64,000 bases of DNA, taken from positions 3,996,799-4,060,798 of the forward strand of contig MU053588.1 of the NCBI GenBank assembly GCA_013239625.1, read 5' to 3'. The translations under genes were made by a program, and so were the position numbers. Positions 1,398-45,742 of the stretch are shown in pieces. The notes under the pieces were generated by a model that was not told the origin of the DNA, did not search any database, and saw nothing but the letters and a program-made list of their open reading frames with translations. This DNA comes from Lama guanicoe. Taxonomy: Eukaryota. The first letter of the stretch is position 1; each line of letters begins with the position of its first letter.

Positions 1398-1550
<153 letters not shown>

Positions 1551-1658: not shown

Positions 1659-2357
1659 CTTTATTGTACATCTTTTTTATTTTATTTTTTATTGACGTAT
1701 AGTCAGTTTACAGTGTTTCATCAATTTCTGGTGTACAACATAATGTTTTAGTCATACATATATATATATTCATTTTCATATTCTTTTTGATTACATATAC
1801 ATGTGATCATTTTCATATTCTTTTTCATTATAGATTACTACAAGATATTGAATATAGTTCTCTGTCCTATACAGTATAAACTTGTTGTCTATTTTATATA
1901 TGGTAGTTAGTATCTGCAAATCTCGAACTCCCAATTTATCCCTTCCCACCCCCTGCCCCCACTGGTAACCATAAGTGTGTTTTCTGTGTCTGTGAGTCTG
2001 TTTCTGTTTTGTAAATAAGTTCATTTGTGTCTTTTTTTTTAGATTCCACATATAAATGATATCTTATGGTATTTTTCTTTTTCTTTCTGTCTTATTTCAC
2101 TTAGAATGACCATCTCCAGGTCCATCTATGTTGCAGCAAATGGCATTAATTTATTCTTTTTTATGTCTGAGTAATACTCCATTGTGTATATATACCACAA
2201 CTTCAGCTTCTTCATCCAGTCATCTGTCAGTGGCATTTAGGTTGCTTCCATGTCTTGGCTATTGTATATAGTGCTGCTGTGAACACTGGGGTGCATGTGT
2301 CTTTTTGAATTTGAGTTCTCTCTGGATATATGCCCTGGAGTGGGATTGCAGATCATA
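1659..2357 (-). mobile_element. 5'-truncated L1 3' end (artiodactyl/camelid type)
   Basis: T-rich tail then the L1 3' UTR motif (tatagtcagtttaca...ctggtgtaca); imperfect TSD ttatgccaRcRattttt at 1642 and 2358. Confidence 0.8.
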
Positions 2358-2712
2358 TTATGCCAGCAATTTTTAAGGAAATAAAATAAGATAGAAAAAT
2401 ATCAGAACTTGTAAGGAAGAATGGAATCCATTGCAGCAAAAACTCTGGCCAATTAAGTGAATGATATAAGAACCAAGGGGAGGGGAGTTAATGAAAATAG
2501 ACATTAGTGAGAAACAGATTTTTGTAATACTTATGCATATGTGTCTACGTCTTGAAATGTCAGTGTTTCTTCAAATAGATCATGTTTTGAAAAACACTTT
2601 GAAAAACATCAGTTTTGATTAATTGATCAACATTAAATTCAGGAATCTAAATTTCCAGTTAATTGTACCTTTGGTGTATTCATTTTAAATAAGTAACTTT
2701 TCATGTTCACAG

Positions 2713-2805: not shown

Positions 2806-3568
2806 GTAAGAACCGGGCGGATGGGAGTCCTTGTGGACGCTCTCCCACGTGTCTGACTTCTCTCCAGCCATTTTGCTCTCATCTGCTCCATGTGCACACC
2901 TCTTTGCTGAATTCTTTCAGTCACCTTCGTACTGGTTGCCCCTCTGCCACTCCTCCCCTCTTATAGTCTGTTCTCCGTGTAGCAGCCAAAGTGATCCTTA
3001 GGAAATGTAAGTCAGGTTATAATTCCTCTATTAAACCCTTCATGGCTTCTTATTTTTCTTAAAGTTAAAACCTCTTAAAGTGGCTCCTGGAGTCCTCCAG
3101 ACTCTGCTCTTGGTCGTCCCTCCCCCCACCCCACCAAGGCTTCTTGATGCATCTCCCCTTCTGTCCCTCTTCCTCCATCTCTTGCAGCCACACTGGCCTC
3201 CCCGCTGTCCTCACACCTGCCAGGGATGCCGTGTCACCCGTGGCTGCCCTGACAAACTACCACAGACCTCACGGCTTAGCACAGCACATGTTGATTGCCT
3301 CACGGTTCTAGCGGTCAGAGGTGTGGTATGGTTCTTACTGGGCTGAAGTCAACTGAGGGGTTTTATGGGATGCTACATGGATAGTGGCCAACTAGACCTC
3401 TTGGTTTCCATTGTCAGGCAAACCAGAACACACGGTACACAATGGAAGAGACAAACTGAACATTCTCTGGACTCATTCTAGTCTCACACTCTCTCCTGAA
3501 TGTGAAATCTTGAAAACCCTGAACAGAGCCTTCAGTTGTTCACGTCTCTGAATTTTGTGTCTTTACAG

Positions 3569-5436
3569 AAGGAAAGATCCCAAGTGAGATGGAGGCTGTT
3601 CCAGAAGCAGGACCACATGGAGAGCGTCCCTGCTGGCAGATGTGGCATCAGATTGCCAGTGACTTAAGCAGGTATCAAGACTTCATGATAAAAAGTTCTG
3701 AGTTCCCTAGGCAAGATGACTCACCTGGCCAGGGTGGGGCAGGACTGGCTTTAACTCACACAGGCCAGAAACTTTATCCATGTAATGAGTGTAAGAAACC
3801 TTTCAGCGATGTCTCCCACTTTGATCTTCACCAACAAATGCACTCAGGAGAGAAGTCTCATACGTGTAGTGTGTGTGGAAAAAGCTTCTGTTACAGCTCA
3901 GCACTTCGTATTCATCAGCGAGTCCACTTGGGAGAGAAACGCTATAAATGTGATGAGTGTGGGAAGGAATTCAGTCAGAGCGCACAGCTGCAAACTCATC
4001 AGAAAGTCCACACCGTCGAGAAGCCATTCAAATGTGAGCAGTGTGGGAAAGGCTTCAGCCGTCGGTCCACACTTACTGTTCACTGTAAATTACACACAGG
4101 AGAGAAGCCTTACAATTGTGACGAATGTGGAAGGGCCTTCATTCATGCTTCGCACCTGCAGGAACATCAGAGAATCCACACTGGGGAGAAACCGTTCAAA
4201 TGTGATATATGCGGTAAGAACTTCCGCCGTAGATCAGCACTTAACAGTCACTGTATGGTCCACACTGGGGAGAAACCGTACAAATGTGAGGAGTGCGGGA
4301 AATGTTTCACTTGTAGCTCCAATCTTCATATCCACCAGAGAGTCCACACGGGAGAGAAACCTTACAAGTGTGAAGAATGCGGTAAGTGCTTCATTCAGCC
4401 TTCACAATTTCAGGCTCATCGGAGAATCCACACTGGAGAGAAGCCATATGTATGTCAAGTGTGTGGTAAAGGCTTCATTTACAGTTCAAGTTTTCAAGCC
4501 CATCAGGGAGTCCACACAGGAGAGAAACCATACAAATGTGGTGAGTGTGGGAAGAGCTTCAGGAGAAACTCCCATTATCAGGTTCACCTGGTCGTCCACA
4601 CAGGGGAGAAACCCTACAAATGTGAGGTGTGTGGGAAGGGCTTCCGTCAGAGTTCGTATCTCAAAATCCATCAGAAGGCCCACAGCGTAGAGAAACCTTT
4701 TAAGTGTGAGGAATGCGGGCAGGGCTTCAATCAGAGTTCCCGACTCCAGATTCACCAGCTGACGCACACCGGTGAGAAACCATACAAATGTGAAGAGTGC
4801 GGGAAGGGATTCAGTCGTAGAGCAGATCTTAAAATTCACTGCAGAATCCACACAGGAGAGAAACCGTATAATTGTGAGGAGTGTGGGAAGGTTTTCAGTC
4901 AGGCCTCTCATCTCCTGACCCATCAGCGGGTCCATAGCGGAGAAAAACCATTCAGATGTGAGGAGTGTGGGAAAAGCTTCAGCCGCAGCTCACACCTTCA
5001 AGCCCATCAGAAAGTCCACACTGGAGAAAAGCCGTACAAATGTGAGGAGTGTGGGAAGGGCTTCAAGTGGAGCTTGAATCTTGACATGCACCAGAGGGTC
5101 CACACGGGAGAGAAACCCTACAAGTGTGGGGAGTGTGGGAAGCACTTCAGTCAGGCCTCGAGTCTTCAGCTTCACCAGAGCGTCCACACTGGGGAGAAGC
5201 CGTACAGATGTGACGTGTGTGGGAAGGTCTTCAGTCGGTCTTCACAGCTTCAGTATCACAGGCGCGTTCACACAGGGGAGAAGCCTTACAAGTGTGAGGC
5301 ATGTGGTAAGAGCTTCAGCTGGCGCTCCAATCTTGTGAGTCATCACAAAATTCACACAGGCGATGCATTTTATGAAAGTGATGAGAGTGGTCAGAACCTC
5401 AAGGAACTATCAGAGGAAGGAAGTCCTACAGAATGA
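3569..5436 (+). CDS. ZNF234: Terminal exon of ZNF234-like gene: short spacer plus 19 C2H2 zinc fingers
   Basis: Acceptor ttacag at 3563-3568, in frame with ORF 3589..5436. 19 CxxC...HxxxH units with TGEKPY linkers. Helices such as [18 protein letters not shown] and SWRSNLVSH match ZNF234 as recalled; position just upstream of ZNF226 fits synteny. Confidence 0.92.
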
Positions 5437-7110
5437 TGCTTTCAGAACCCTCATGTGCCGCCTGAATTCTCGTCATCATTAGGTCTCAGAGGAGAGAAAA
5501 TATTGGAGGTTAGTTGGTGTGGAAGCAGTCGCTGAACAGATCCCAGTTCTCTCTAGACGGCACAGCAGAGAGCCCTTCTAACTGGTGCAGTGGCAGCTGC
5601 TGTCAGAACTGTGACATGTCACTTTGGAGATAGGACTTAGAAGGGAAAAGAGTTTGGTCTGGCCTTTAGCAAAAGCATAGGGACAGGCTCGTCAGAATCT
5701 CTGTCCTTAGAATGTGAGCTCCAGGAGGGCAGGGACCTGCCTGCTCAATCTCCCCCATCTTAACACTGACTAGCGCTTGCAGGTGTGCTCAGTGCTTGGC
5801 CGTTAAGTAATCCAAACGGTGAAAAGGTTCAACATATGAAAATTATATCCAGAGGAGGAAACCCGCAAAATAAGATTAATTCAGGAAAGGAATATTTGTT
5901 GAGATGCAGGAAACCACTCTGTATGACAGTCCATGAAATTAACGTGGTGTTAGTCAGTTGCAGTTGGCGTCTTTCCTCCCACAGCGTCTGTTCTACAGGT
6001 CAGGGGATTATTTGGGGCCCTGTCTGGTTTTCCAAGGATTGTGTCTAGTATAAACTGAACTATCTCATGATTTTTTTTCCCTAACAATGCAGACTGAAAA
6101 ATTGTGGTTAACTCTACAACAGCAGGTTAAATGCATATTATACAATTGATTTTTGTCTATCAGTGTTAAGGCAGGGCTTACTGTAACACTTCGAAAGCAT
6201 CGCAGGTGGTTACCAATGACAAGCATGTTCTTAGTCGATCTGGAGATTTTTATGGATTTCTAATTGTCTGTGTTTTCAGCCAGAAATGTTTGCCTTCTAA
6301 TTATGGTAGCATTTCTTCTTTAAGAACTTCTCAGGGGTCTTTGCCATAGTCTTCCCCCACATCCATGGGGCAAATCACCAGAAAACTTGCAGGAATTTGA
6401 TCAAATTATCAAATGCATTATTGAGGTGAGACTGGCATTTATATGCTTTCCCTATTGGTAGCAGGAAAGCATGGTTTGGGGAAAGGAGAACATATCAGAA
6501 TATAGATTGTACATCTCTTGCATCTGGAAATCATATCATTGGATGCTATGGTTATGAAATTAAAATACCAAAAAATTGAGCACCACATCAATGATGTCAC
6601 TGAATTTTTTAATTGAAATAAATGTACATCTGTAGAAATTCGAGTTTTGCTATATTCCTGTGTGAATCTGAAGCCATTAAAATTATGGCAGATACCTGTA
6701 ATGGCAGAAAAAATACATAATACGGACTTTGAGAGACCACAGATTGTAGTCTTCTTGATATAATCAACCATAAATCTTTGTGTGTGTGTGCGTGCGCACA
6801 TGTACGTGTACGTGCATAAAGTAATTTGTAAAAGATACTCTACCATAGTGGGTTTCCTTGGCAAGGAACATTTTACAGGTTTTTTTCCATTTTTTAATTT
6901 CAGGTTATGTTTTCATTTTTCATTGAATATTGAATATTACCAGAGCAGTAAATTATTACAACAGAATTTGAAGAAGTACTACATAATTTTTTTTAATTTT
7001 AAGTACTGAATAATTATCCCTTGCAGTTAAGACCTCATAATATGATTGTTCTATATTGTCATTTAAGTTGTAAGGTCAAAATTAAGGTATGGACTCTGGA
7101 AGGCAATTTC

Positions 7111-15146: not shown

Positions 15147-15582
15147 AGAAACAACATATTGTTACATCTTTTATAAAAAGTTGTCCATGTCAATTTAAGT
15201 ATATTGTTGAGATAACAAAATTCTTAGGAAGACAACCAGAGATTTTGAGAAATCTAAAGACTCTTGCATGACAGAACAACAACCTAGGAACTCCACATGT
15301 CTTACAGTATTCTGTTGGGAGAAATTGCCTTTATAAGGATAATTTCAAACTATAAAATATCATCTGCTTTACTGCAGTTGCTGAGAAATAAGAAACCCTG
15401 AGAGTGTTCTCAGAGTTTTCTACCTTACAGCAGTCCTACGAGGTGGATACCACTGTTCCCCCCCACTTGCAGGTGACAGAATTGAGACAAAGAGACGTTA
15501 ATAATTTGCTGAAGATGATACTCCTGGTGAAAGGCCTCGCTAGGATTTCAGCCCATGCATATTGACTCCATAGCCTACTCTT

Positions 15583-16126
15583 TTGTTTTTTTAATCAAAG
15601 TATAGTTGATTTGCAATGTTGTGCTAATTTCTGGTGTACAGCATAGTGATTCAGTTATGTGTGTGTATGTATATATATATTCCTTTTCGTATTCTTTTTC
15701 ATTGTAGGCTATTACGAGGTATTGTATATAGTTCTCTGTGCTGTACAGTAGGTCCTTGTTTATCTAGTTTATATATAGTAGTTAGTATCTACAAATCCCA
15801 AGCTCCCAATTTATCCCTCCCCATCCCCTTTCCCTCCCAGTAACCTTAAGTTTGTTTTTTGTGTCTGTGAGTCTGTTTCTGTTTTGCAGACAAGTTCATT
15901 TGTCTCATTTTTTCAGATTCTGCATATAAGTGATATCATATGGTGTTTGTCTTTCTTTGACTTACTTTACCTAGTGTGACAGTCTCCAGGTCCATCCATG
16001 TTGCTGCACATGGCATTATTTTATTCTTTTTTATGGCTGAGTAGCATTCCATTATATGTATGTATACCACAATTTCTTTACGTTGTCATCTGTCAGTGGA
16101 CATCTAGGTTGCTTCCATGTCTTGGC
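15583..16126 (-). mobile_element. L1 3' end
   Basis: Perfect 17-bp TSD ctccatagcctactctt at 15566 and 16127. Confidence 0.85.
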
Positions 16127-18272: not shown

Positions 18273-18399
18273 GAGGCAGTGACCTTCAAGGATGTGGCTG
18301 TGGCCTTCACAGAGGAGGAGCTGGGGCTGCTGGACTCCACTCAGAGGAAGCTGTACCAGGACGTCATGGTGGAAAACTTCAGGAACCTGGTCTCAGTGG
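18273..18399 (+). CDS. ZNF226: KRAB-A exon of ZNF226
   Basis: 127 nt with AG/GT ends; [43 protein letters not shown]. Confidence 0.93.
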
Positions 18400-19003
18400 G
18401 TGAGGACAGCCTTTCTCTGGAGTGTCTTTGTGACCTTGGCGTTTTAAGGCTTTGGGACCCTTAAAATGGTTCCTTGAGTTTGGGGACCAGACTGCCAGTT
18501 CCTGTGCAACACAAGGGGGTCTTTCTAAACAGGATGTTTTAGGTCTTTTTCTTTTGTGTTTTGTGGAAGAACTGTAAATGGATAGGATGCTGCTGCACCT
18601 TGTCTGTTCTTTTTCAGGTTTCACTCCTGTCCCTTAGTGGATTAGGAAGCCAATTTATTGAGTCCTACGTGCAATTTTTAAAATATAGGAAATATCAGCA
18701 CTCTTAGGAAAGGTAGAACACGCTGCAGCAAGAACTCTGGCCAGTTGCATGAGTGGTGTGAGAGCCAGTGGGAACAGATTTAATGAAAATAGAAATTGCT
18801 TAGAAATAGATCATTCAGCCTTCATTTTAATAATACATATTTTTACACATCTGGGTCATGAAGTAAATGCTGTTTCTTCAGTGGGTCACGATACAAAGTT
18901 TGAAAGACACCGCTTTCAATCTCTTGAATACACAGTTGGAGATCAAATTTCCAGTGAATTTTAGCGCTAGAATGTTCACTTTAACTTGCGACTTTGTTCT
19001 CAG

Positions 19004-20090: not shown

Positions 20091-22289
<2,199 letters not shown>

Positions 22290-34871: not shown

Positions 34872-35566
34872 ACTCTGGAAAACAGTATGGAGATTCCTTA
34901 AAAAACTAAAAATCGAGTTTCCATAGGATCCAGCAATCCCACTCCTGGGCATATAGCCAAAGAAAACTCTAAAATTCAAAAAGGTGATGCACCCCAATGT
35001 TCACAGCAGCACTATTTACAATAGCCAAGAAATGGAAACAGCTTGTTTCCATGGACAGATAACTGGATAAAGAAGCTGTGGTGTATGTATATATAGTAGA
35101 ATACTACTCACCATAAAAACGGGTGAAATAATGCCGTGTGCAGCAACATGGATGGACATGGAGATTGTCACACTAAGTGAAGTCAGACAAATATCGTATC
35201 ATGTCACTTATATGTGGAATCTTAAAAATGAACAAATGAACTTACCAAACAAAAACAGACTCACAGACGTAGAAAACAAACTTACGGTTACCAAAGGGGA
35301 AAGGAGGTGGGGAAGGCTAAATTAGGAGTTTGCAATTTGCAGATACAAACTACTAGATGTAAAATAGATAAACAACATGGTCCTACTGTCTAGTACAGGG
35401 AACTACATTCAATATCTTGTAATAATATACAATGGAAAAGAATCTGAAAGAAACATACGTATAAATATGTATAACTGAATCACTGTACTGTGCACCAGAA
35501 ACTAATACAACATTGTGAATCAAGTATCCTTCCTGTTTTTTAAAAAAAAAAAAAAGGGTGGGGGAG
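34872..35566 (+). mobile_element. L1 3' end (ORF2 end, 3' UTR, poly-A)
   Basis: ORF 35131 (AATWMDMEIVTLSEVRQ), A tail, TSD aatcRgggctttca. Confidence 0.85.
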
Positions 35567-42020: not shown

Positions 42021-43613
42021 CTCCCTTCTGCCTCTTGTAAGGACCCTTGTGATCAGTTTGGGCCCATCCAGAGAATCCAGGGTAACCTCATCTCAAGATC
42101 CTCAAAGCACTCAAATCTGAAGTCCCTTTTGCATGTTAACTTACAGTTAATTAACTGGACGATTAATATGTTAATTGTATAATTAGCTGTACAATTAATA
42201 TGTTAATTACACAGTTAACTGCACAATAAATATGTTAATTGTACATTGACGTAGTCACAGGTTCCAGGGAATAGGGCATGGGCATCCTGAGGGCATTGGA
42301 TTCGCCTGCCTCACCCAGAAACCTGCACGTACCTGTTGAGACTGTTTCAGTGTGTATTTGAATGTAACTTTCCGTTTAAGCAAATGAAACATTAAGGACT
42401 TGGTACCCCCATCCATACTTTAAGCCAGTGGCTTCCATGCATTTTTAACTATGCCCCTCAATAAGGAATACTTTACATCTCACCCCGACATAAATACAAT
42501 GTATGGGCATATTTGTGTGTGTGTCTACAGCTGAAACAAGCATCTCCTATAGTGGTACCCTTTCCACTTGTAATGCACACTTCATGTTTGTATTCTTTTA
42601 ATTTTTCTTTTCATGTGTCACAAGGTCGGGAGTGGGTTTCACAGTTCACTCATACATGCCAGCAAGTTAAAAAATTCTGTCACATCGGGGCTAAAGCAAT
42701 GAAAAAGACAAAGGGCATGTCTTCCTCGTGTCTTTTCCATTCTGATGGGTCTAAAAAGACGAGCACAAATGAGGAAGGCTGGAGGGAAGCAGAGAATAAG
42801 TGCTGCAGGGAAAAGTAAAGCAGAGTAAGGCAGAGGGGAAGGTGAAGGTGTGCGCAGCTGGGGAGGAATGACTTTCTGCTGGGTGAGGAGGACGCCCCCC
42901 CCCCTTGACTGACATGTGCGTATAGAGACCTGCAGGGAGTGAGAGGAAGGGCCAGCTTTGCAGCCCTCTGGGAGGAAGCTTTCCCAGCGGAAGATGACTC
43001 TTCCCTCTCTCCCACTTCAGGGCTGCCTTTGAGAATCTGGACGGTGCCCTGTTTCTTTCCTTTGCCCAAGTGCTTTCTTAGCCACAGAAGATGAGTTTTT
43101 CCCTTTTCCACTTCTTTCAACAGAGACCTAAATTACTACCAGGTTTAGAACAATGCATATAATTATTCCAACCACTTCCCAAGTTTTCTCTGGGAATATC
43201 CTATCTACGAGGACCTAAAATACCTTCGTAGGCCCATAGCCTGAGCTTTTGGGACCTAACTGGGTAGAAGCCCACTTGTCCTAAGCCTGCTAAGGAGAAA
43301 GTGAGTAGACTTTTCATTGATGTTGCTGTAGGCTGGAATGTGGGTTGTCTTGGTTTCAGCCTTAGAGCCCAGGTATTAAACTGTTAGACTTACAGTTCTC
43401 AGTGGGTCACATGTACAGAAGAGTCTGTTGACTTCATTCTTTGCTTCCACTTGTACAGAAAAGCATAACAAAACGATAAATGGTGTTATACAGACATGTC
43501 CCTTCCCCTGGCCTATTAAGGCCTTATCTCCTGGCCTAAGTGTGAAATCCTGATACTGATACTGAACAAAGCATTTACTTGTCCTGGTCTCTGAATATTG
43601 CCTTTTCTCATAG

Positions 43614-45742
43614 GCAACAGGAATCAAAATGAGATGGAGAATCTGCGAAAAGTTGCATTAAAATACATTTCATGGGAAGAGCCATCCTGCTGGCAAATCT
43701 GGAAACAGGTTGCAAGTGATTTAACCAGGGGTCTTTACTGGAAGAGTTCCCCATTTCTACAGGGCGATTCTGTTCAGGTTTCTGAAAATGGGAACCATGT
43801 AATGAATCGTAAAGGAGATAACTCCATTTGCCTTGAAAATCAAGAGTTTTTGGTGTCGAGAACACAGGATTCTCGTGTGAACACCTACCTGAGCGAGGCA
43901 CAGAATCAGAGTAGAGCTGAGCACATCAACAGGAAAAATGACCTGCGTGTGTGTGAAGGCTTCATGAGGAAACCACCACTCAGTGAGCCCGCTGAGACTG
44001 ACATGGACCAGAAACCCTCCAAACATAACGGATGTGGCAGGAGCCTTGGTGACAGCTTCACTCGGCACTGCCCCTTAGGAGAGAGGCTCCTTCCATGCAG
44101 AGAGTGTGGGAAAGGCTTCAGTCATCACTCTGTGCTGCCAGCTCGCCAGAATGTTCACACAGGAGAGCGATGGCCCCGTCAGAGCTCACACCTTCAGACA
44201 TGTCTGAGGATTCCCCGAGGAGAGAAAGTCGATGAATGTCATGAATCAGGTGACTGTTTCAGTAAGACGTCTTTTTATCCTCATCAGTCTCATCATATAG
44301 GAGAGAAGTCCTATCGGTGTGGCAGTTGTGGCAAAGGGTTCAGTAGCAGCACAGGGCTTACCGTCCACTACAGAACGCACACGGGAGAGAAGCCTTACAA
44401 ATGTGCAGAGTGTGGTAAATGCTTCAGTCAGAGTTCAAATTTTCAGTGCCATCAGAGAGTCCACACAGAAGAAAAACCATACAAATGTGAAGAGTGTGGG
44501 AAGGGCTTCGGCTGGAGCGTTAATCTTCGCGTTCATCAGAGGGTCCACAGGGGTGAGAAACCCTATAAATGTGGAGAGTGTGGGAAGGGTTTCACTCAGG
44601 CCGCACATTATCACATCCATCGGCGGGTCCATACTGGGGAGAAACCTTACAAATGTGATGTCTGTGGCAAGGGCTTCAGTCACAATTCCCCTTTAATATG
44701 CCACCGGAGGGTCCACACCGGAGAGAAACCCTACAAATGTGAGGTGTGTGGGAAAGGCTTCACCCGGAATACCGATCTTCACATCCATTTGAGAGTCCAC
44801 ACGGGAGAGAAGCCCTACAAATGTAAGGAGTGCGGGAAGGGCTTCAGTCAGGCTTCCAATCTTCAGGTCCATCAGAACGTCCACACTGGGGAGAAACGAT
44901 TCAAATGCGAAACGTGTGGGAAGGGCTTCAGCCAGTCGTCAAAGCTTCAGACCCATCAGAGAGTCCACACCGGAGAGAAGCCATACAAATGTGATGTGTG
45001 TGGTAAGGACTTCAGTTACAGTTCAAATCTCAAACTGCACCAAGTGATCCACACCGGAGAAAAACCATATAAATGCGAGGAGTGCGGGAAGGGCTTCAGC
45101 TGGAGGTCAAATCTTCATGCACATCAGAGAGTCCACTCAGGAGAGAAACCCTACAGATGTAAGGAGTGTGATAAGGGCTTCAGTCAGGCGATAGATTTTC
45201 GGGTCCATCAGAGAGTCCACACTGGAGAGAAACCCTACAAATGTGAGGTGTGTGGGAAGGGCTTCAGTCAGTCCTCTGGTTTGCAGTCCCACCAGAGAGT
45301 CCACACTGGGGAAAAGCCGTACAAATGTGATGTCTGTGGAAAGGGTTTTAGATACAGTTCCCAGTTTATATACCACCAGAGAGGCCACACTGGCGAGAAA
45401 CCGTACAAATGTGAAGAGTGTGGGAAAGGCTTCGGCAGGAGTTTGAATCTTCGCCATCACCAGAGGGTCCACACGGGAGAGAAACCCCATAAGTGTGAGG
45501 AGTGTGGGAAGGCCTTCAGTCTCCCCTCAAATCTTCGAGTCCATCTGAGTGTTCACACTCGGGAGAAACTATTTAAATGTGAGGTGTGTGGTAAGGGCTT
45601 TAATCAGAGTTCACGTCTTCAGGCCCATCAGAGAGTCCACACTGGAGAAAAACCATACAGGTGTGACGTCTGTGGTAAGGACTTCAGTCACCGTTCCCGC
45701 CTCACGTACCATCAGAAAGTCCATACTGGCAAGAATCTTTAA
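43614..45742 (+). CDS. ZNF227: Terminal exon of ZNF227: spacer, about 3 degenerate fingers and 17 intact C2H2 fingers
   Basis: Acceptor ctcatag ends at 43613, in frame with ORF 43598..45742. Helices [27 protein letters not shown] and SQAIDFRVH match ZNF227 as recalled. Confidence 0.93.

What the first reader, a model, noticed from the sequence alone, without database searches (positions are those of the whole stretch)
4508..5318. Patchwork gene conversion between the ZNF234 and ZNF226 finger arrays that spares several recognition helices
Seen: at a constant offset of 16853, fingers 10-19 share perfectly identical tracts, synonymous sites included: 4508-4644 (137 bp), 4666-4889 (224 bp), 4990-5213 (224 bp; one mismatch, then identical to 5246) and 5266-5318 (53 bp), matching 21361-22171. 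The breaks fall mostly on helix codons: F11 RQSSYLK vs SQSSYLQ, F14 SQASHLLT vs RQASNLLA, F15 SRSS vs GRSS, F18 QYHRR vs QSHQR, F19 LVSH vs LTIH. Fingers 1-9, introns and UTRs are heavily diverged, so the duplication is old. Inference: recurrent non-allelic gene conversion homogenises the C-terminal arrays while selection removes tracts that overwrite specificity-defining helices.
Basis: partly seen in the sequence, partly recalled or inferred. Interest (0 to 1): 0.8.

Follow-up and report, generated by a model that had tools for sequence, protein, structure and literature searches.

The report
Patchy gene conversion between zinc-finger paralogues
Two neighbouring zinc-finger repressor genes of a camelid that duplicated long ago have recently had most of their last ten fingers copied onto each other, a known process, and nothing tested here shows that selection rather than mechanics or chance left the small uncopied gaps.

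Summary
At offset 16853 the last exons of gene A (3523-5436, ZNF234-like) and gene B (20091-22289, ZNF226 orthologue) share identical runs of 137, 224, 224+32 and 53 bp. The 220 whole codons in these tracts show 0 differences over 127.7 synonymous sites. Fingers 1-9 have dS 0.82 and the gaps between tracts dS 1.40. The gaps are therefore old, unconverted DNA. No third donor exists in the assembly. Interlocus gene conversion is the best reading. The events are recent: the single mismatch is a CpG transition. They probably number at least two, in opposite directions, judged from a whale ZNF234-like protein. Tract GC3 is raised, 61% against 43-47%.

The selection claim is not supported:
- Only 3 of 9 amino-acid differences in fingers 10-18 lie at canonical contact positions.
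- Two "spared" helices (F11, F15) have identical contact residues.
- 5 of 8 boundaries fall in helix codons, P=0.16.
- Finger 10's helix seems to have been overwritten.

No read-level check was possible. The scan found the same pair converted in another genome (e1-7855695). This is a new member of a known kind.

The parts
3523..5436 (+). Gene A last exon (open frame, 637 aa): spacer plus 19 C2H2 fingers of 84 nt starting at 3775. ZNF234-like; the name rests on gene order recalled from human and on 91% identity to an unnamed whale model.
20091..22289 (+). Gene B last exon (open frame, 732 aa): longer spacer, one degenerate finger (last His replaced by Gln), then 18 fingers. ZNF226 orthologue.
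   Evidence: Its spacer and its F5, F7, F9, F18 helices and C-terminal tail match the Peromyscus 'zinc finger protein 226' cluster.
4508..4644 (+). Tract 1, 137 bp identical to 21361-21497 (end of F9, F10, start of F11). Probably copied from B into A.
   Evidence: A differs from whale ZNF234 at 7 of 46 codons here against 9 of 224 in F2-9, Fisher p=0.009.
4645..4665 (+). Gap 1 (F11 codons 11-17), pairs with 21498-21518: 5 differences in 21 bp (2 nonsynonymous at helix positions -2 and +5, 2 synonymous codons). Canonical contact residues are identical in A and B.
4666..4889 (+). Tract 2, 224 bp identical to 21519-21742 (end of F11, F12, F13, start of F14).
   Evidence: A against whale: 3 of 69 codons differ.
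4890..4989 (+). Gap 2 (F14 codon 8 to F15 codon 13), pairs with 21743-21842: 15 differences in 100 bp, both synonymous and nonsynonymous. F14 differs at +3 and +6; F15 differs only at -2 and at codon 2.
4990..5246 (+). Tract 3, 257 bp matching 21843-22099 with one mismatch at 5214/22067 (GAC|G against GAT|G, a synonymous CpG transition, read as a mutation after conversion). Covers the end of F15, F16, F17 and the start of F18.
   Evidence: A against whale: 0 of 85 codons differ.
5247..5265 (+). Gap 3 (F18 codons 15-21), pairs with 22100-22118: 8 differences in 19 bp. A has QYHRR as in whale ZNF234; B has QSHQR as in Peromyscus ZNF226.
5266..5318 (+). Tract 4, 53 bp identical to 22119-22171 (end of F18, start of F19). 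Old divergence resumes after 5318: F19 has 18 differences in 84 nt, the tail is 63.6% identical and the 3'UTR 67.4%.
21361..22171 (+). Partner region in gene B holding the four tracts and three gaps.
1404..1526 (+). KRAB-A-like exon of gene A (context; limits approximate, from a motif match).
18279..18401 (+). KRAB-A-like exon of gene B (context; limits approximate). It lies inside the 74%-identical A/B intron-region alignment.

Best explanation
This is mosaic interlocus (non-allelic) gene conversion between the last exons of two tandem, same-strand KRAB zinc-finger paralogues 16.85 kb apart: A, ZNF234-like, and B, the ZNF226 orthologue.

Shown:
- The duplication is old.
- Within an 811-bp stretch covering fingers 10-19, four segments totalling 670 identical bases (671 positions with the single mismatch) have been made identical.
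- Three short gaps (21, 100 and 19 bp) and everything outside the stretch keep the ancient divergence.

Inferred:
- Homologous repair used the paralogue as template, in tracts of about 50-260 bp.
- The last homogenisation is recent, roughly 1-4 My. The 95% range is about 0.03-22 My over the assumed rates (1.0-2.2e-9 per site per year) and site counts.
- There were probably at least two events in opposite directions: finger 10 copied B to A, and fingers 12-17 mostly A to B.
- The region has probably exchanged repeatedly, which would explain its raised GC3.
- The gaps persist because tracts are short and tend to end, or be rejected, where mismatches are dense. In zinc-finger DNA that means the helix codons. 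Once a patch has diverged it becomes a self-reinforcing barrier. Selection for gene-specific helices may add to this, but it is not needed to explain the data.
For: - Exact tracts at one offset.
- 0 of 127.7 synonymous sites differ in the 220 tract codons, against pS 0.497 (dS 0.82) in F1-9 and dS 1.40 in the 49 gap codons.
- Permutation maximum run 100 against 224 observed.
- In-register identity is 86.9% overall, while every other register or paralogue gives 68-78%.
- Flanking divergence is old: 3'UTR 67.4%, introns 71-74%.
- In the whole 2.05-Gb assembly only A (100%) and B (93%) match the region; the next hit is 74-76%. No gap has a third-party match above 87%, 24 flanking bases included.
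- The gaps carry gene-specific residues. A's F11, F14, F15 (position -2) and F18 gap residues equal the whale ZNF234-like protein. B's F18 gap equals Peromyscus ZNF226.
- Direction: A against whale differs at 7 of 46 codons in tract 1 against 9 of 224 in F2-9 (p=0.009), but at 3 of 69 and 0 of 85 in tracts 2 and 3. Those last two are far below the A/B-type distance of 54 of 224.
- GC3 is 135/222 in the tracts against 115/244 (A F1-9), 105/244 (B F1-9) and 19/48 (B gaps). This fits the GC bias of non-allelic conversion and the 250-bp mean tract length reported in 10.1101/135152 (passages read).
- Short conversions among poly-ZF paralogues were found with GENECONV in PMC2604467 (passages read).
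- Old differences are denser in helix codons, 28.7% against 17.8%.
- Weak support: 19 runs from 8 studies (7 without the best holder's study, a possible source of the assembly) hold at least 0.80 of 296 sampled words of 3500-6200.
Against: - There is no read-level or second-assembly confirmation of the tract/gap junctions. The 15-20% of sampled words missing could hide all eight junctions.
- No DNA of orthologues could be obtained, so the species-against-gene tree test was not done.
- Direction rests on one whale protein model, which is itself a chimeric prediction. Its own ZNF234 might be converted, or its finger 10 might have changed in the whale lineage.
- Conversion between sequences with about 20% background divergence is thought to be rare ('escape', 10.1101/135152). 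A history of earlier exchange in this sub-region therefore has to be assumed.
- A 21-bp gap between 137 and 224 identical bases is small compared with a 250-bp mean tract. That is what a selective barrier would also give.
Confidence: 0.8

Rival explanations
1. Recurrent conversion homogenises the C-terminal arrays, and purifying selection removes every conversion that overwrites a paralogue-specific recognition helix. The gaps would then be selection-maintained peaks of divergence of the Teshima-Innan or opsin type.
For: - Peaks of old divergence inside a converted region are the published signature of such selection (PMC3924837 passages; PMC3728101 abstract).
- All three multi-base gaps include helix codons. 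Phase-shift tests are marginal: 7 of 84, 4 of 84, and independent shifts P=0.05.
- Gap residues are conserved by gene across orders: A equals whale ZNF234, and B's F18 equals Peromyscus ZNF226.
- The 21-bp F11 gap is short relative to typical tracts.
Against: - The F11 and F15 gaps differ at no canonical contact residue.
- Only 3 of 9 amino-acid differences in F10-18 are at -1, 2, 3 or 6.
- 5 of 9 complete fingers have fully identical helices.
- A's finger-10 helix appears overwritten.
- Gap dN/dS is about 0.07, against about 0.19 in F1-9.
- Boundaries in helix codons, 5 of 8, are not above the 39% expected from where old differences lie, P=0.16. For canonical positions alone, 20 of 84 phase shifts do as well.
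- Conservation by gene holds for the whole protein (0-3 differences per finger in F2-9), not for the gaps in particular.
Confidence: 0.2
2. One single conversion event with a roughly 0.8-kb heteroduplex, whose mismatches were repaired in patches. Some patches went to the donor and some were restored, giving a discontinuous tract at once.
For: All four tracts are equally young: 0, 0, 1 and 0 differences. They lie within 811 bp, and none occurs in the 756 bp of fingers 1-9.
Against: - The whale comparison suggests opposite directions for tract 1 and tracts 2-3, which a single one-way event does not give.
- A heteroduplex across about 20% mismatch would be strongly disfavoured (inference from established knowledge of mismatch-repair anti-recombination, recalled).
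- Raised GC3 suggests repeated events.
Confidence: 0.15
3. Assembly or polishing artefact. The true copies differ slightly in the tracts, and reads of one copy were used to build or correct the other.
For: The assembly is fragmented (55,231 contigs) and holds redundant small contigs for other ZNF loci. No read-level check succeeded. Sparse true differences in highly similar stretches are the kind that polishing can erase.
Against: - The gaps, 137-257 bp apart, are assigned correctly by gene: A-type equals whale ZNF234, B-type equals Peromyscus ZNF226. The copies were therefore kept apart at read-length scale.
- The window has no N.
- No extra contigs carry alternative versions.
- 19 runs of 8 studies and 5 organism labels hold at least 80% of the sampled words.
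Confidence: 0.07
4. No conversion: extreme constraint on the nucleotide sequence itself (splicing or RNA signals) keeps the tracts identical.
For: None found.
Against: 0 of 127.7 synonymous sites changed where the same exon shows pS about 0.5 next door. The sharp tract edges and the raised GC3 are not what constraint gives.
Confidence: 0.01

Closest known systems
Interlocus gene conversion among paralogous poly-zinc-finger (KRAB-ZNF) genes, detected with GENECONV (Emerson and Thomas 2009, PMC2604467; passages read)
   Same: Short converted regions between paralogous finger exons in clustered ZNF genes. The mechanism and the gene family are the same.
   Different: That paper treats conversions as a nuisance to be filtered out and describes no pair in detail. 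Here the pair is an old one (dS about 0.8) with a finger-resolution mosaic. ZNF226/ZNF234 are not linked to conversion in the searched library: one search found 3 papers holding two of the terms, and none holds 'gene conversion'; one search found none holding either gene name.
Non-allelic gene conversion in human duplicate genes (Harpak et al. 2017, bioRxiv 10.1101/135152; passages read)
   Same: Tract sizes of 53-257 bp fit the estimated mean of 250 bp. The GC bias fits, as does the dependence on similarity and the 'escape' of diverged parts.
   Different: Their model predicts that pairs this diverged have escaped. Here a sub-region is still exchanging while the rest of the same exon has escaped.
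Mosaic divergence and selection-maintained divergence peaks in converting paralogues: red/green opsin, RHCE/RHD, the Teshima-Innan model (reviewed in PMC3924837, passages read); HMA4 mosaic model (bioRxiv 10.1101/2025.10.29.685298, abstract read); GOT1 islands (PMC3728101, abstract in listing)
   Same: Low-divergence converted stretches are interrupted by sharp peaks of old divergence that contain amino-acid differences.
   Different: In the opsin case the peaks sit on substitutions of proven function. Here two of the gaps carry no canonical DNA-contact difference, and no function is known for any of them.
   Same: The same gene pair and the same C-terminal fingers. Its follow-up reached the same conclusion: a known process with no evidence of selection.
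   Different: That note reports two uncorrected gaps; here there are three multi-base gaps plus one single mismatch. Its DNA shares no indexed words with this window, so it is not a close relative. I did not see its sequence.
PRDM9-type minisatellite homogenisation within one finger array
   Same: Recombination acts on 84-bp finger repeats.
   Different: Here the exchange is between genes and in register. Fingers within each array are only 68-78% alike.

Membership tests
Interlocus (non-allelic) gene conversion between tandem paralogues | Paralogous segments identical or nearly so at synonymous sites, far beyond the background of the same genes | tested here: met
   0 of 127.7 synonymous sites differ in the tracts, against pS 0.497 in F1-9. 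The longest run in 5000 permutations was 100, against 224 observed.
Interlocus (non-allelic) gene conversion between tandem paralogues | Flanking paralogous DNA shows an old duplication, so the identity is not a young duplication | tested here: met
   F1-9 dS 0.82, gaps dS 1.40. 3'UTR 67.4% and introns 71-74% identical.
Interlocus (non-allelic) gene conversion between tandem paralogues | Phylogenetic discordance: converted segments group by species, unconverted ones by gene | tested here: inconclusive
   Only protein-level evidence from two outgroups. The gaps group by gene: A equals whale ZNF234, and B's F18 equals Peromyscus ZNF226. No second-species ZNF226 covering F10-17 and no orthologue DNA was obtainable.
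Interlocus (non-allelic) gene conversion between tandem paralogues | The identity is real in reads or independent assemblies | not testable with these tools
   The one read-laying run gave no result. One search shows only that most sampled words occur in 19 runs of 8 studies.
Interlocus (non-allelic) gene conversion between tandem paralogues | GC-biased composition of converted tracts | tested here: met
   GC3 is 135/222 in the tracts, against 115/244 (p=0.004) and 105/244 (p=0.0001) in F1-9 of A and B. It could partly reflect donor composition, since A's gaps have 28/48.
Selection-maintained divergence peaks under conversion (Teshima-Innan / opsin type) | Sharp peaks of old divergence inside a converted region | tested here: met
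   The gaps of 21, 100 and 19 bp carry 5, 15 and 8 differences, with dS 1.40.
Selection-maintained divergence peaks under conversion (Teshima-Innan / opsin type) | Peaks centred on functionally decisive substitutions (here the DNA-contact positions -1, 2, 3, 6) | tested here: inconclusive
   3 of 9 amino-acid differences in F10-18 are canonical, against 13 of 64 in F1-9. The F11 and F15 gaps have none. The phase test for canonical codons gives 20 of 84. Boundaries in helix codons: 5 of 8, P=0.16.
Selection-maintained divergence peaks under conversion (Teshima-Innan / opsin type) | Conversions entering the peaks occur but are removed (polymorphism or cross-lineage evidence) | not tested
   No population data or orthologue DNA was available.
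KRAB C2H2 zinc-finger genes of the ZNF234-ZNF226-ZNF227 neighbourhood | KRAB-A exon upstream and a long C2H2 array in the last exon, with tandem same-strand genes | tested here: met
   KRAB-A-like motifs at about 1404, 18279, 37929 and 63009, all on the + strand. Arrays of 19, 18 and 17 fingers.
KRAB C2H2 zinc-finger genes of the ZNF234-ZNF226-ZNF227 neighbourhood | Orthology to the named genes | tested here: inconclusive
   C is 83% identical over 710 aa to Equus asinus 'zinc finger protein 227'. B's gene-specific spacer and helices match the Peromyscus 'zinc finger protein 226' cluster at 59%. A is 91% identical to an unnamed whale model; the name ZNF234 rests on human gene order recalled from memory.
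PRDM9-like within-array concerted evolution | Neighbouring fingers of one array nearly identical to each other | tested here: not met
   Out-of-register and within-gene alignments are 68-78% identical.

The most novel reading that the evidence does not exclude
The C-terminal arrays of ZNF234 and ZNF226 have been in continuous concerted evolution since before the artiodactyl radiation, possibly in many mammals. The earlier scan note in an unrelated genome points the same way. The few patches that never convert (the F11, F14/15, F18 and F19 helices) would be held apart by selection. The mosaic would then be a natural, finger-resolution map of which residues make the two repressors functionally distinct, including non-canonical positions (-2, +5, +8) that the standard recognition code ignores.
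Probability: 0.2. Interest if true: 0.55.

Novelty: new member of a known kind. Interest (0 to 1): 0.3.

Why it matters
Conversion between KRAB zinc-finger paralogues blurs orthology, distorts dN/dS and dating, and can swap DNA-reading fingers between repressors in one step. This pair shows that an old duplicate (dS about 0.8) can still exchange one half of its finger array while the other half has escaped. Anyone building ZNF234/ZNF226 trees or testing positive selection in camelids must mask 4508-5318 and 21361-22171. If the uncopied gaps proved to be selected, they would mark the residues that keep the two proteins functionally different. As it stands, this is a clean but ordinary example of a described process, already met once by this scan in another genome.

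Tried and rejected
- **Orthologue proteins.** Three word-indexed searches were made.
  - Whole A: 2223 hits at E<=1e-100 among 8000 scored candidates and 120 listed. Only one, the gray-whale model P0003, exceeded 60% identity.
  - A spacer, residues 1-100: 1 hit, a mis-joined Camelus ferus model.
  - B spacer, residues 40-215: 2 hits, neither an orthologue with fingers 10-17.
- **Representative library with B residues 1-215.** 4349 hits at E<=0.001. The top spacer matches were fragments or a Peromyscus ZNF226 that lacks fingers 10-17. No non-camelid ZNF226 covering the converted fingers was found, so the direction of tracts 2-4 stays open.
- **Orthologue DNA.** The metagenome scan kept 80 loci with a best identity of 59%; none is an orthologue. 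The window's assembly has no relatives held.
- **Read-level check.** Whether the junctions stand in raw data is therefore open.
- **Solved structures.** 150 sequences at E<=1e-10 and 60 shown. None is named ZNF226 or ZNF234, so there are no human finger sequences from that route.
- **Third donor for the gaps.** Rejected.
- **Earlier-notes look-ups by place and sequence.** They returned nothing.
- **Shannon et al. 2003 on this cluster.** The paper is not held, so I could not see what it says about this pair. Supplements of the papers cited were not opened.
- **Nucleotide-level constraint and unequal crossing-over.** Both were considered and rejected as causes of the identity. Constraint cannot give zero synonymous change next to pS 0.5. 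A single crossover cannot give an in-place mosaic.
Full report
**What is in the window.** Stop-to-stop frames of at least 200 aa under the standard code give three long zinc-finger exons on the + strand:
- A, 3523-5436
- B, 20091-22289
- C, 43595-45742

A fourth frame, 3755-4690, is merely an off-frame reading of A. A has 19 C2H2 fingers of 84 nt starting at 3775. B has one degenerate finger and then 18. C has 17. KRAB-A-like motifs lie upstream of each at about 1404, 18279 and 37929, and a fourth at about 63009. This is a tandem KRAB-ZNF cluster.

Naming and origin:
- C is 83% identical over 710 aa to Equus asinus 'zinc finger protein 227'.
- B's gene-specific spacer, several helices and its C-terminal tail match a cluster named 'zinc finger protein 226' in Peromyscus.
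- A is 91% identical to the zinc-finger part of an unnamed, chimeric gray-whale model. Calling A 'ZNF234' rests on human gene order that I recall, not on a call.
- Earlier notes of the scan call this genome an alpaca-like camelid. The only hit to A's spacer was a Camelus ferus model.

**The observation.** One search compared the window with itself at offset 16853. It gave identical runs at 4508-4644 (137 bp), 4666-4889 (224), 4990-5213 (224), 5215-5246 (32) and 5266-5318 (53). No run longer than 25 bp occurs elsewhere in 3000-7000.

Per finger:
- F1-9 are 70-83% identical.
- F10, 12, 13, 16 and 17 are 100% identical.
- F11, 14, 15, 18 and 19 carry 5, 9, 6, 9 and 18 differences.

The in-register alignment 3759-5401 against 20612-22254 is 86.9% identical. 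Every other register and every other paralogue gives 68-78%.

**Is it more than chance or constraint?** Shuffling the 205 differences over the 1596 aligned bases 5000 times never gave an identical run above 100, and the analytic chance of one run of 224 is about 9e-12. With third positions alone the observed run is 74, against at most 47.

Nei-Gojobori counts:

| Region | dS | dN | Note |
|---|---|---|---|
| F1-9 | 0.816 | 0.153 | pS 0.497 |
| 220 tract codons | 0 | 0 | 0 of 127.7 synonymous and 0 of 532.3 nonsynonymous sites differ |
| 49 gap codons | 1.40 | 0.095 | |

Protein-level constraint therefore cannot explain the tracts. The gaps are not new mutations. They are pieces of the old, never or long-ago converted sequence, carrying both synonymous and nonsynonymous differences.

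The flanks confirm an old duplication. The C-terminal tail is 63.6% identical, the 3'UTR 67.4%, and the alignable intron pieces 71-74%.

The single mismatch inside tract 3 (5214) is GAC|G against GAT|G, a synonymous CpG transition. It is most simply a mutation after conversion. With one change in the tracts and assumed mammalian rates of 1.0-2.2e-9 per site per year (recalled), the last homogenisation dates to roughly 1-4 My ago. The 95% range is about 0.03-22 My, depending on rate and on which sites are counted.

**No third donor.** In the 2.05-Gb assembly that holds the window, a search with 4447-5436 found A (100%), B (93%) and then nothing above 74-76%. I scanned each gap with 12 flanking bases per side against the window and the neighbouring paralogues. 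The best third-party matches were 76-87%, and for A's F18 and F19 gaps nothing reached 75%.

**Comparison with other species (protein level only).**

The whale ZNF234-like protein differs from A at 0-3 residues per finger in F2-9, 9 of 224 in all. It shares A's gap residues: RQSSYLK in F11, SQASHLLT in F14, Ser at -2 of F15, and QYHRR in F18. The one exception is F15 codon 2, where whale and B share Lys.

Peromyscus ZNF226 lacks F10-17 but has QSHQR in F18, as B does. So the gaps group by gene across orders.

Inside tract 1, A differs from whale at 7 of 46 codons (Fisher p=0.009 against the F2-9 baseline). This is compatible with the A/B-type distance of 54 of 224 (p=0.25). The changes include -1 (Met/Arg) and +2 (Ile/Ser) of F10. 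In tracts 2 and 3 the figures are 3 of 69 and 0 of 85, at baseline and far below the paralogue distance.

The simplest reading is that finger 10 was copied from B into A, while F12-F17 were copied from A into B or were already alike. That means at least two events. This rests on one outgroup protein and is tentative.

**Composition.** GC3 in the tracts and comparison regions:

| Region | GC3 | P against tracts |
|---|---|---|
| Tracts | 135/222 (61%) | |
| A F1-9 | 115/244 | 0.004 |
| B F1-9 | 105/244 | 0.0001 |
| B gaps | 19/48 | 0.0097 |
| A gaps | 28/48 | not significant |

This fits the GC bias reported for non-allelic conversion (10.1101/135152, passages). It also fits a mostly A-type origin of the tracts.

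**The selection claim.** The tests I could run do not support this:
1. Five of the nine complete fingers in the region have fully identical helices.
2. In the canonical code (-1, 2, 3, 6, which are unit positions 12, 14, 15, 18; numbering recalled and checked against the Leu at +4 and His at +7), the F11 and F15 gaps show no contact difference. Only F14 (+3, +6), F18 (+6) and F19 (+6) differ. That is 3 of 9 amino-acid differences in F10-18, against 13 of 64 in F1-9.
3. Gap dN/dS is about 0.07, against about 0.19 in F1-9.
4. In unconverted F1-9, helix codons 11-18 are already more diverged (28.7% against 17.8%) and hold 62 of 158 differences. Visible tract edges are therefore expected there 39% of the time. 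Observed: 5 of 8, P=0.16.
5. Sliding the gap mask through the 84-nt finger phase, 7 of 84 shifts (codons 12-18), 4 of 84 (codons 11-18) and 20 of 84 (canonical codons) reach the observed overlap with helix codons. Independent shifts give P=0.05. This is marginal and is not corrected for point 4.
6. A's finger-10 helix appears to have been overwritten.

Against my scepticism: a divergence peak is the published signature of selection under conversion (PMC3924837). The 21-bp F11 gap is small relative to a 250-bp mean tract. Selection stays possible, at about 0.2.

**Mechanism proposed.** Shown: identical tracts, old gaps, no third donor. Inferred: repair of breaks in one finger exon used the paralogue 16.85 kb away as template, giving tracts of about 50-260 bp. 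Tracts end, or heteroduplex is rejected, where mismatches are dense, and in finger DNA that is the helix codons. A patch that has once diverged is then spared again and again, while the similar stretches between patches keep exchanging and gain GC. This is local 'escape' as described for whole duplicates in 10.1101/135152.

**Artefact.** I could not test reads; the one read-laying run gave no result. The evidence against an artefact is indirect:
- The gaps are assigned to the right gene at 137-257-bp spacing.
- There are no Ns.
- There are no spare contigs with other versions.
- 19 runs from 8 studies and 5 organism labels hold at least 0.80 of 296 sampled words of 3500-6200. The missing 15-20% could hide the junction words, and one study may be the assembly's source.
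- An earlier scan note reports the same pair converted in a different genome, which I did not verify.

I put the artefact at about 0.07.

**Known or new.**
- Short conversions among poly-ZF paralogues are in print (PMC2604467).
- Tract length, GC bias and similarity dependence are in 10.1101/135152.
- Mosaic divergence and selected peaks are in PMC3924837, in 10.1101/2025.10.29.685298 (abstract) and in PMC3728101 (abstract in listing).
- In the held library, three papers hold both ZNF226 and ZNF234, and none of them holds 'gene conversion'. A second search with paralog, concerted evolution and camelid found none holding either gene name.
- The 2003 paper on this cluster is not held.
- The scan itself met this pair before (e1-7855695).

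**Verdict.** This is a real, cleanly resolved, recent mosaic conversion, and a new member of a known kind. The selective gloss is unproven. Interest 0.3.

Noticed in passing
P0126 / P0271 (Peromyscus ZNF226 cluster), compared with window 21300-22223: The deer-mouse ZNF226 lacks the eight fingers that correspond to F10-F17 of the camelid gene. A finger that reads like the start of F9 and the end of F10 is followed directly by F18. The in-frame loss covers almost exactly the stretch that is converted in the camelid, which suggests the same region is prone to recombination in other ways.
   Followed up: partly
P0123 (Camelus ferus hypothetical protein) against window about 3580-3680 and 43600-44000: This database model joins the spacer of gene A to the spacer of gene C (ZNF227) and holds no fingers. 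It is a mis-joined gene prediction across the cluster.
   Followed up: no
P0003 (gray whale, 1035 aa): The whale model fuses about 445 unrelated N-terminal residues to the ZNF234-like last exon and is cut off inside F19. It is a chimeric, partial prediction, usable only for its finger part.
   Followed up: no
window 20628-20711: The finger of B that pairs with A's finger 1 has lost its last zinc-binding His (Gln instead). B therefore has 18 intact fingers against A's 19.
   Followed up: partly
window 63009 onward (+ strand): A fourth KRAB-A-like exon lies at the end of the window, the start of a further tandem ZNF gene. The own-genome search shows more finger exons just beyond the window on both strands (C1236:4063168, 4081834, 4118980).
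   Followed up: no
window 1796-2358, 15578-16126 and 34923-35556 (the last inverted): Three copies of an interspersed repeat of about 0.5 kb, 76-81% alike, lie in the introns or spacers of the cluster. They were not classified.
   Followed up: no
own genome C55200:2013-3919 and C6946:5418029-5419935: A small contig repeats a ZNF stretch of a large scaffold with identical scores. The assembly therefore holds redundant pieces for other ZNF loci, though none for A or B.
   Followed up: no
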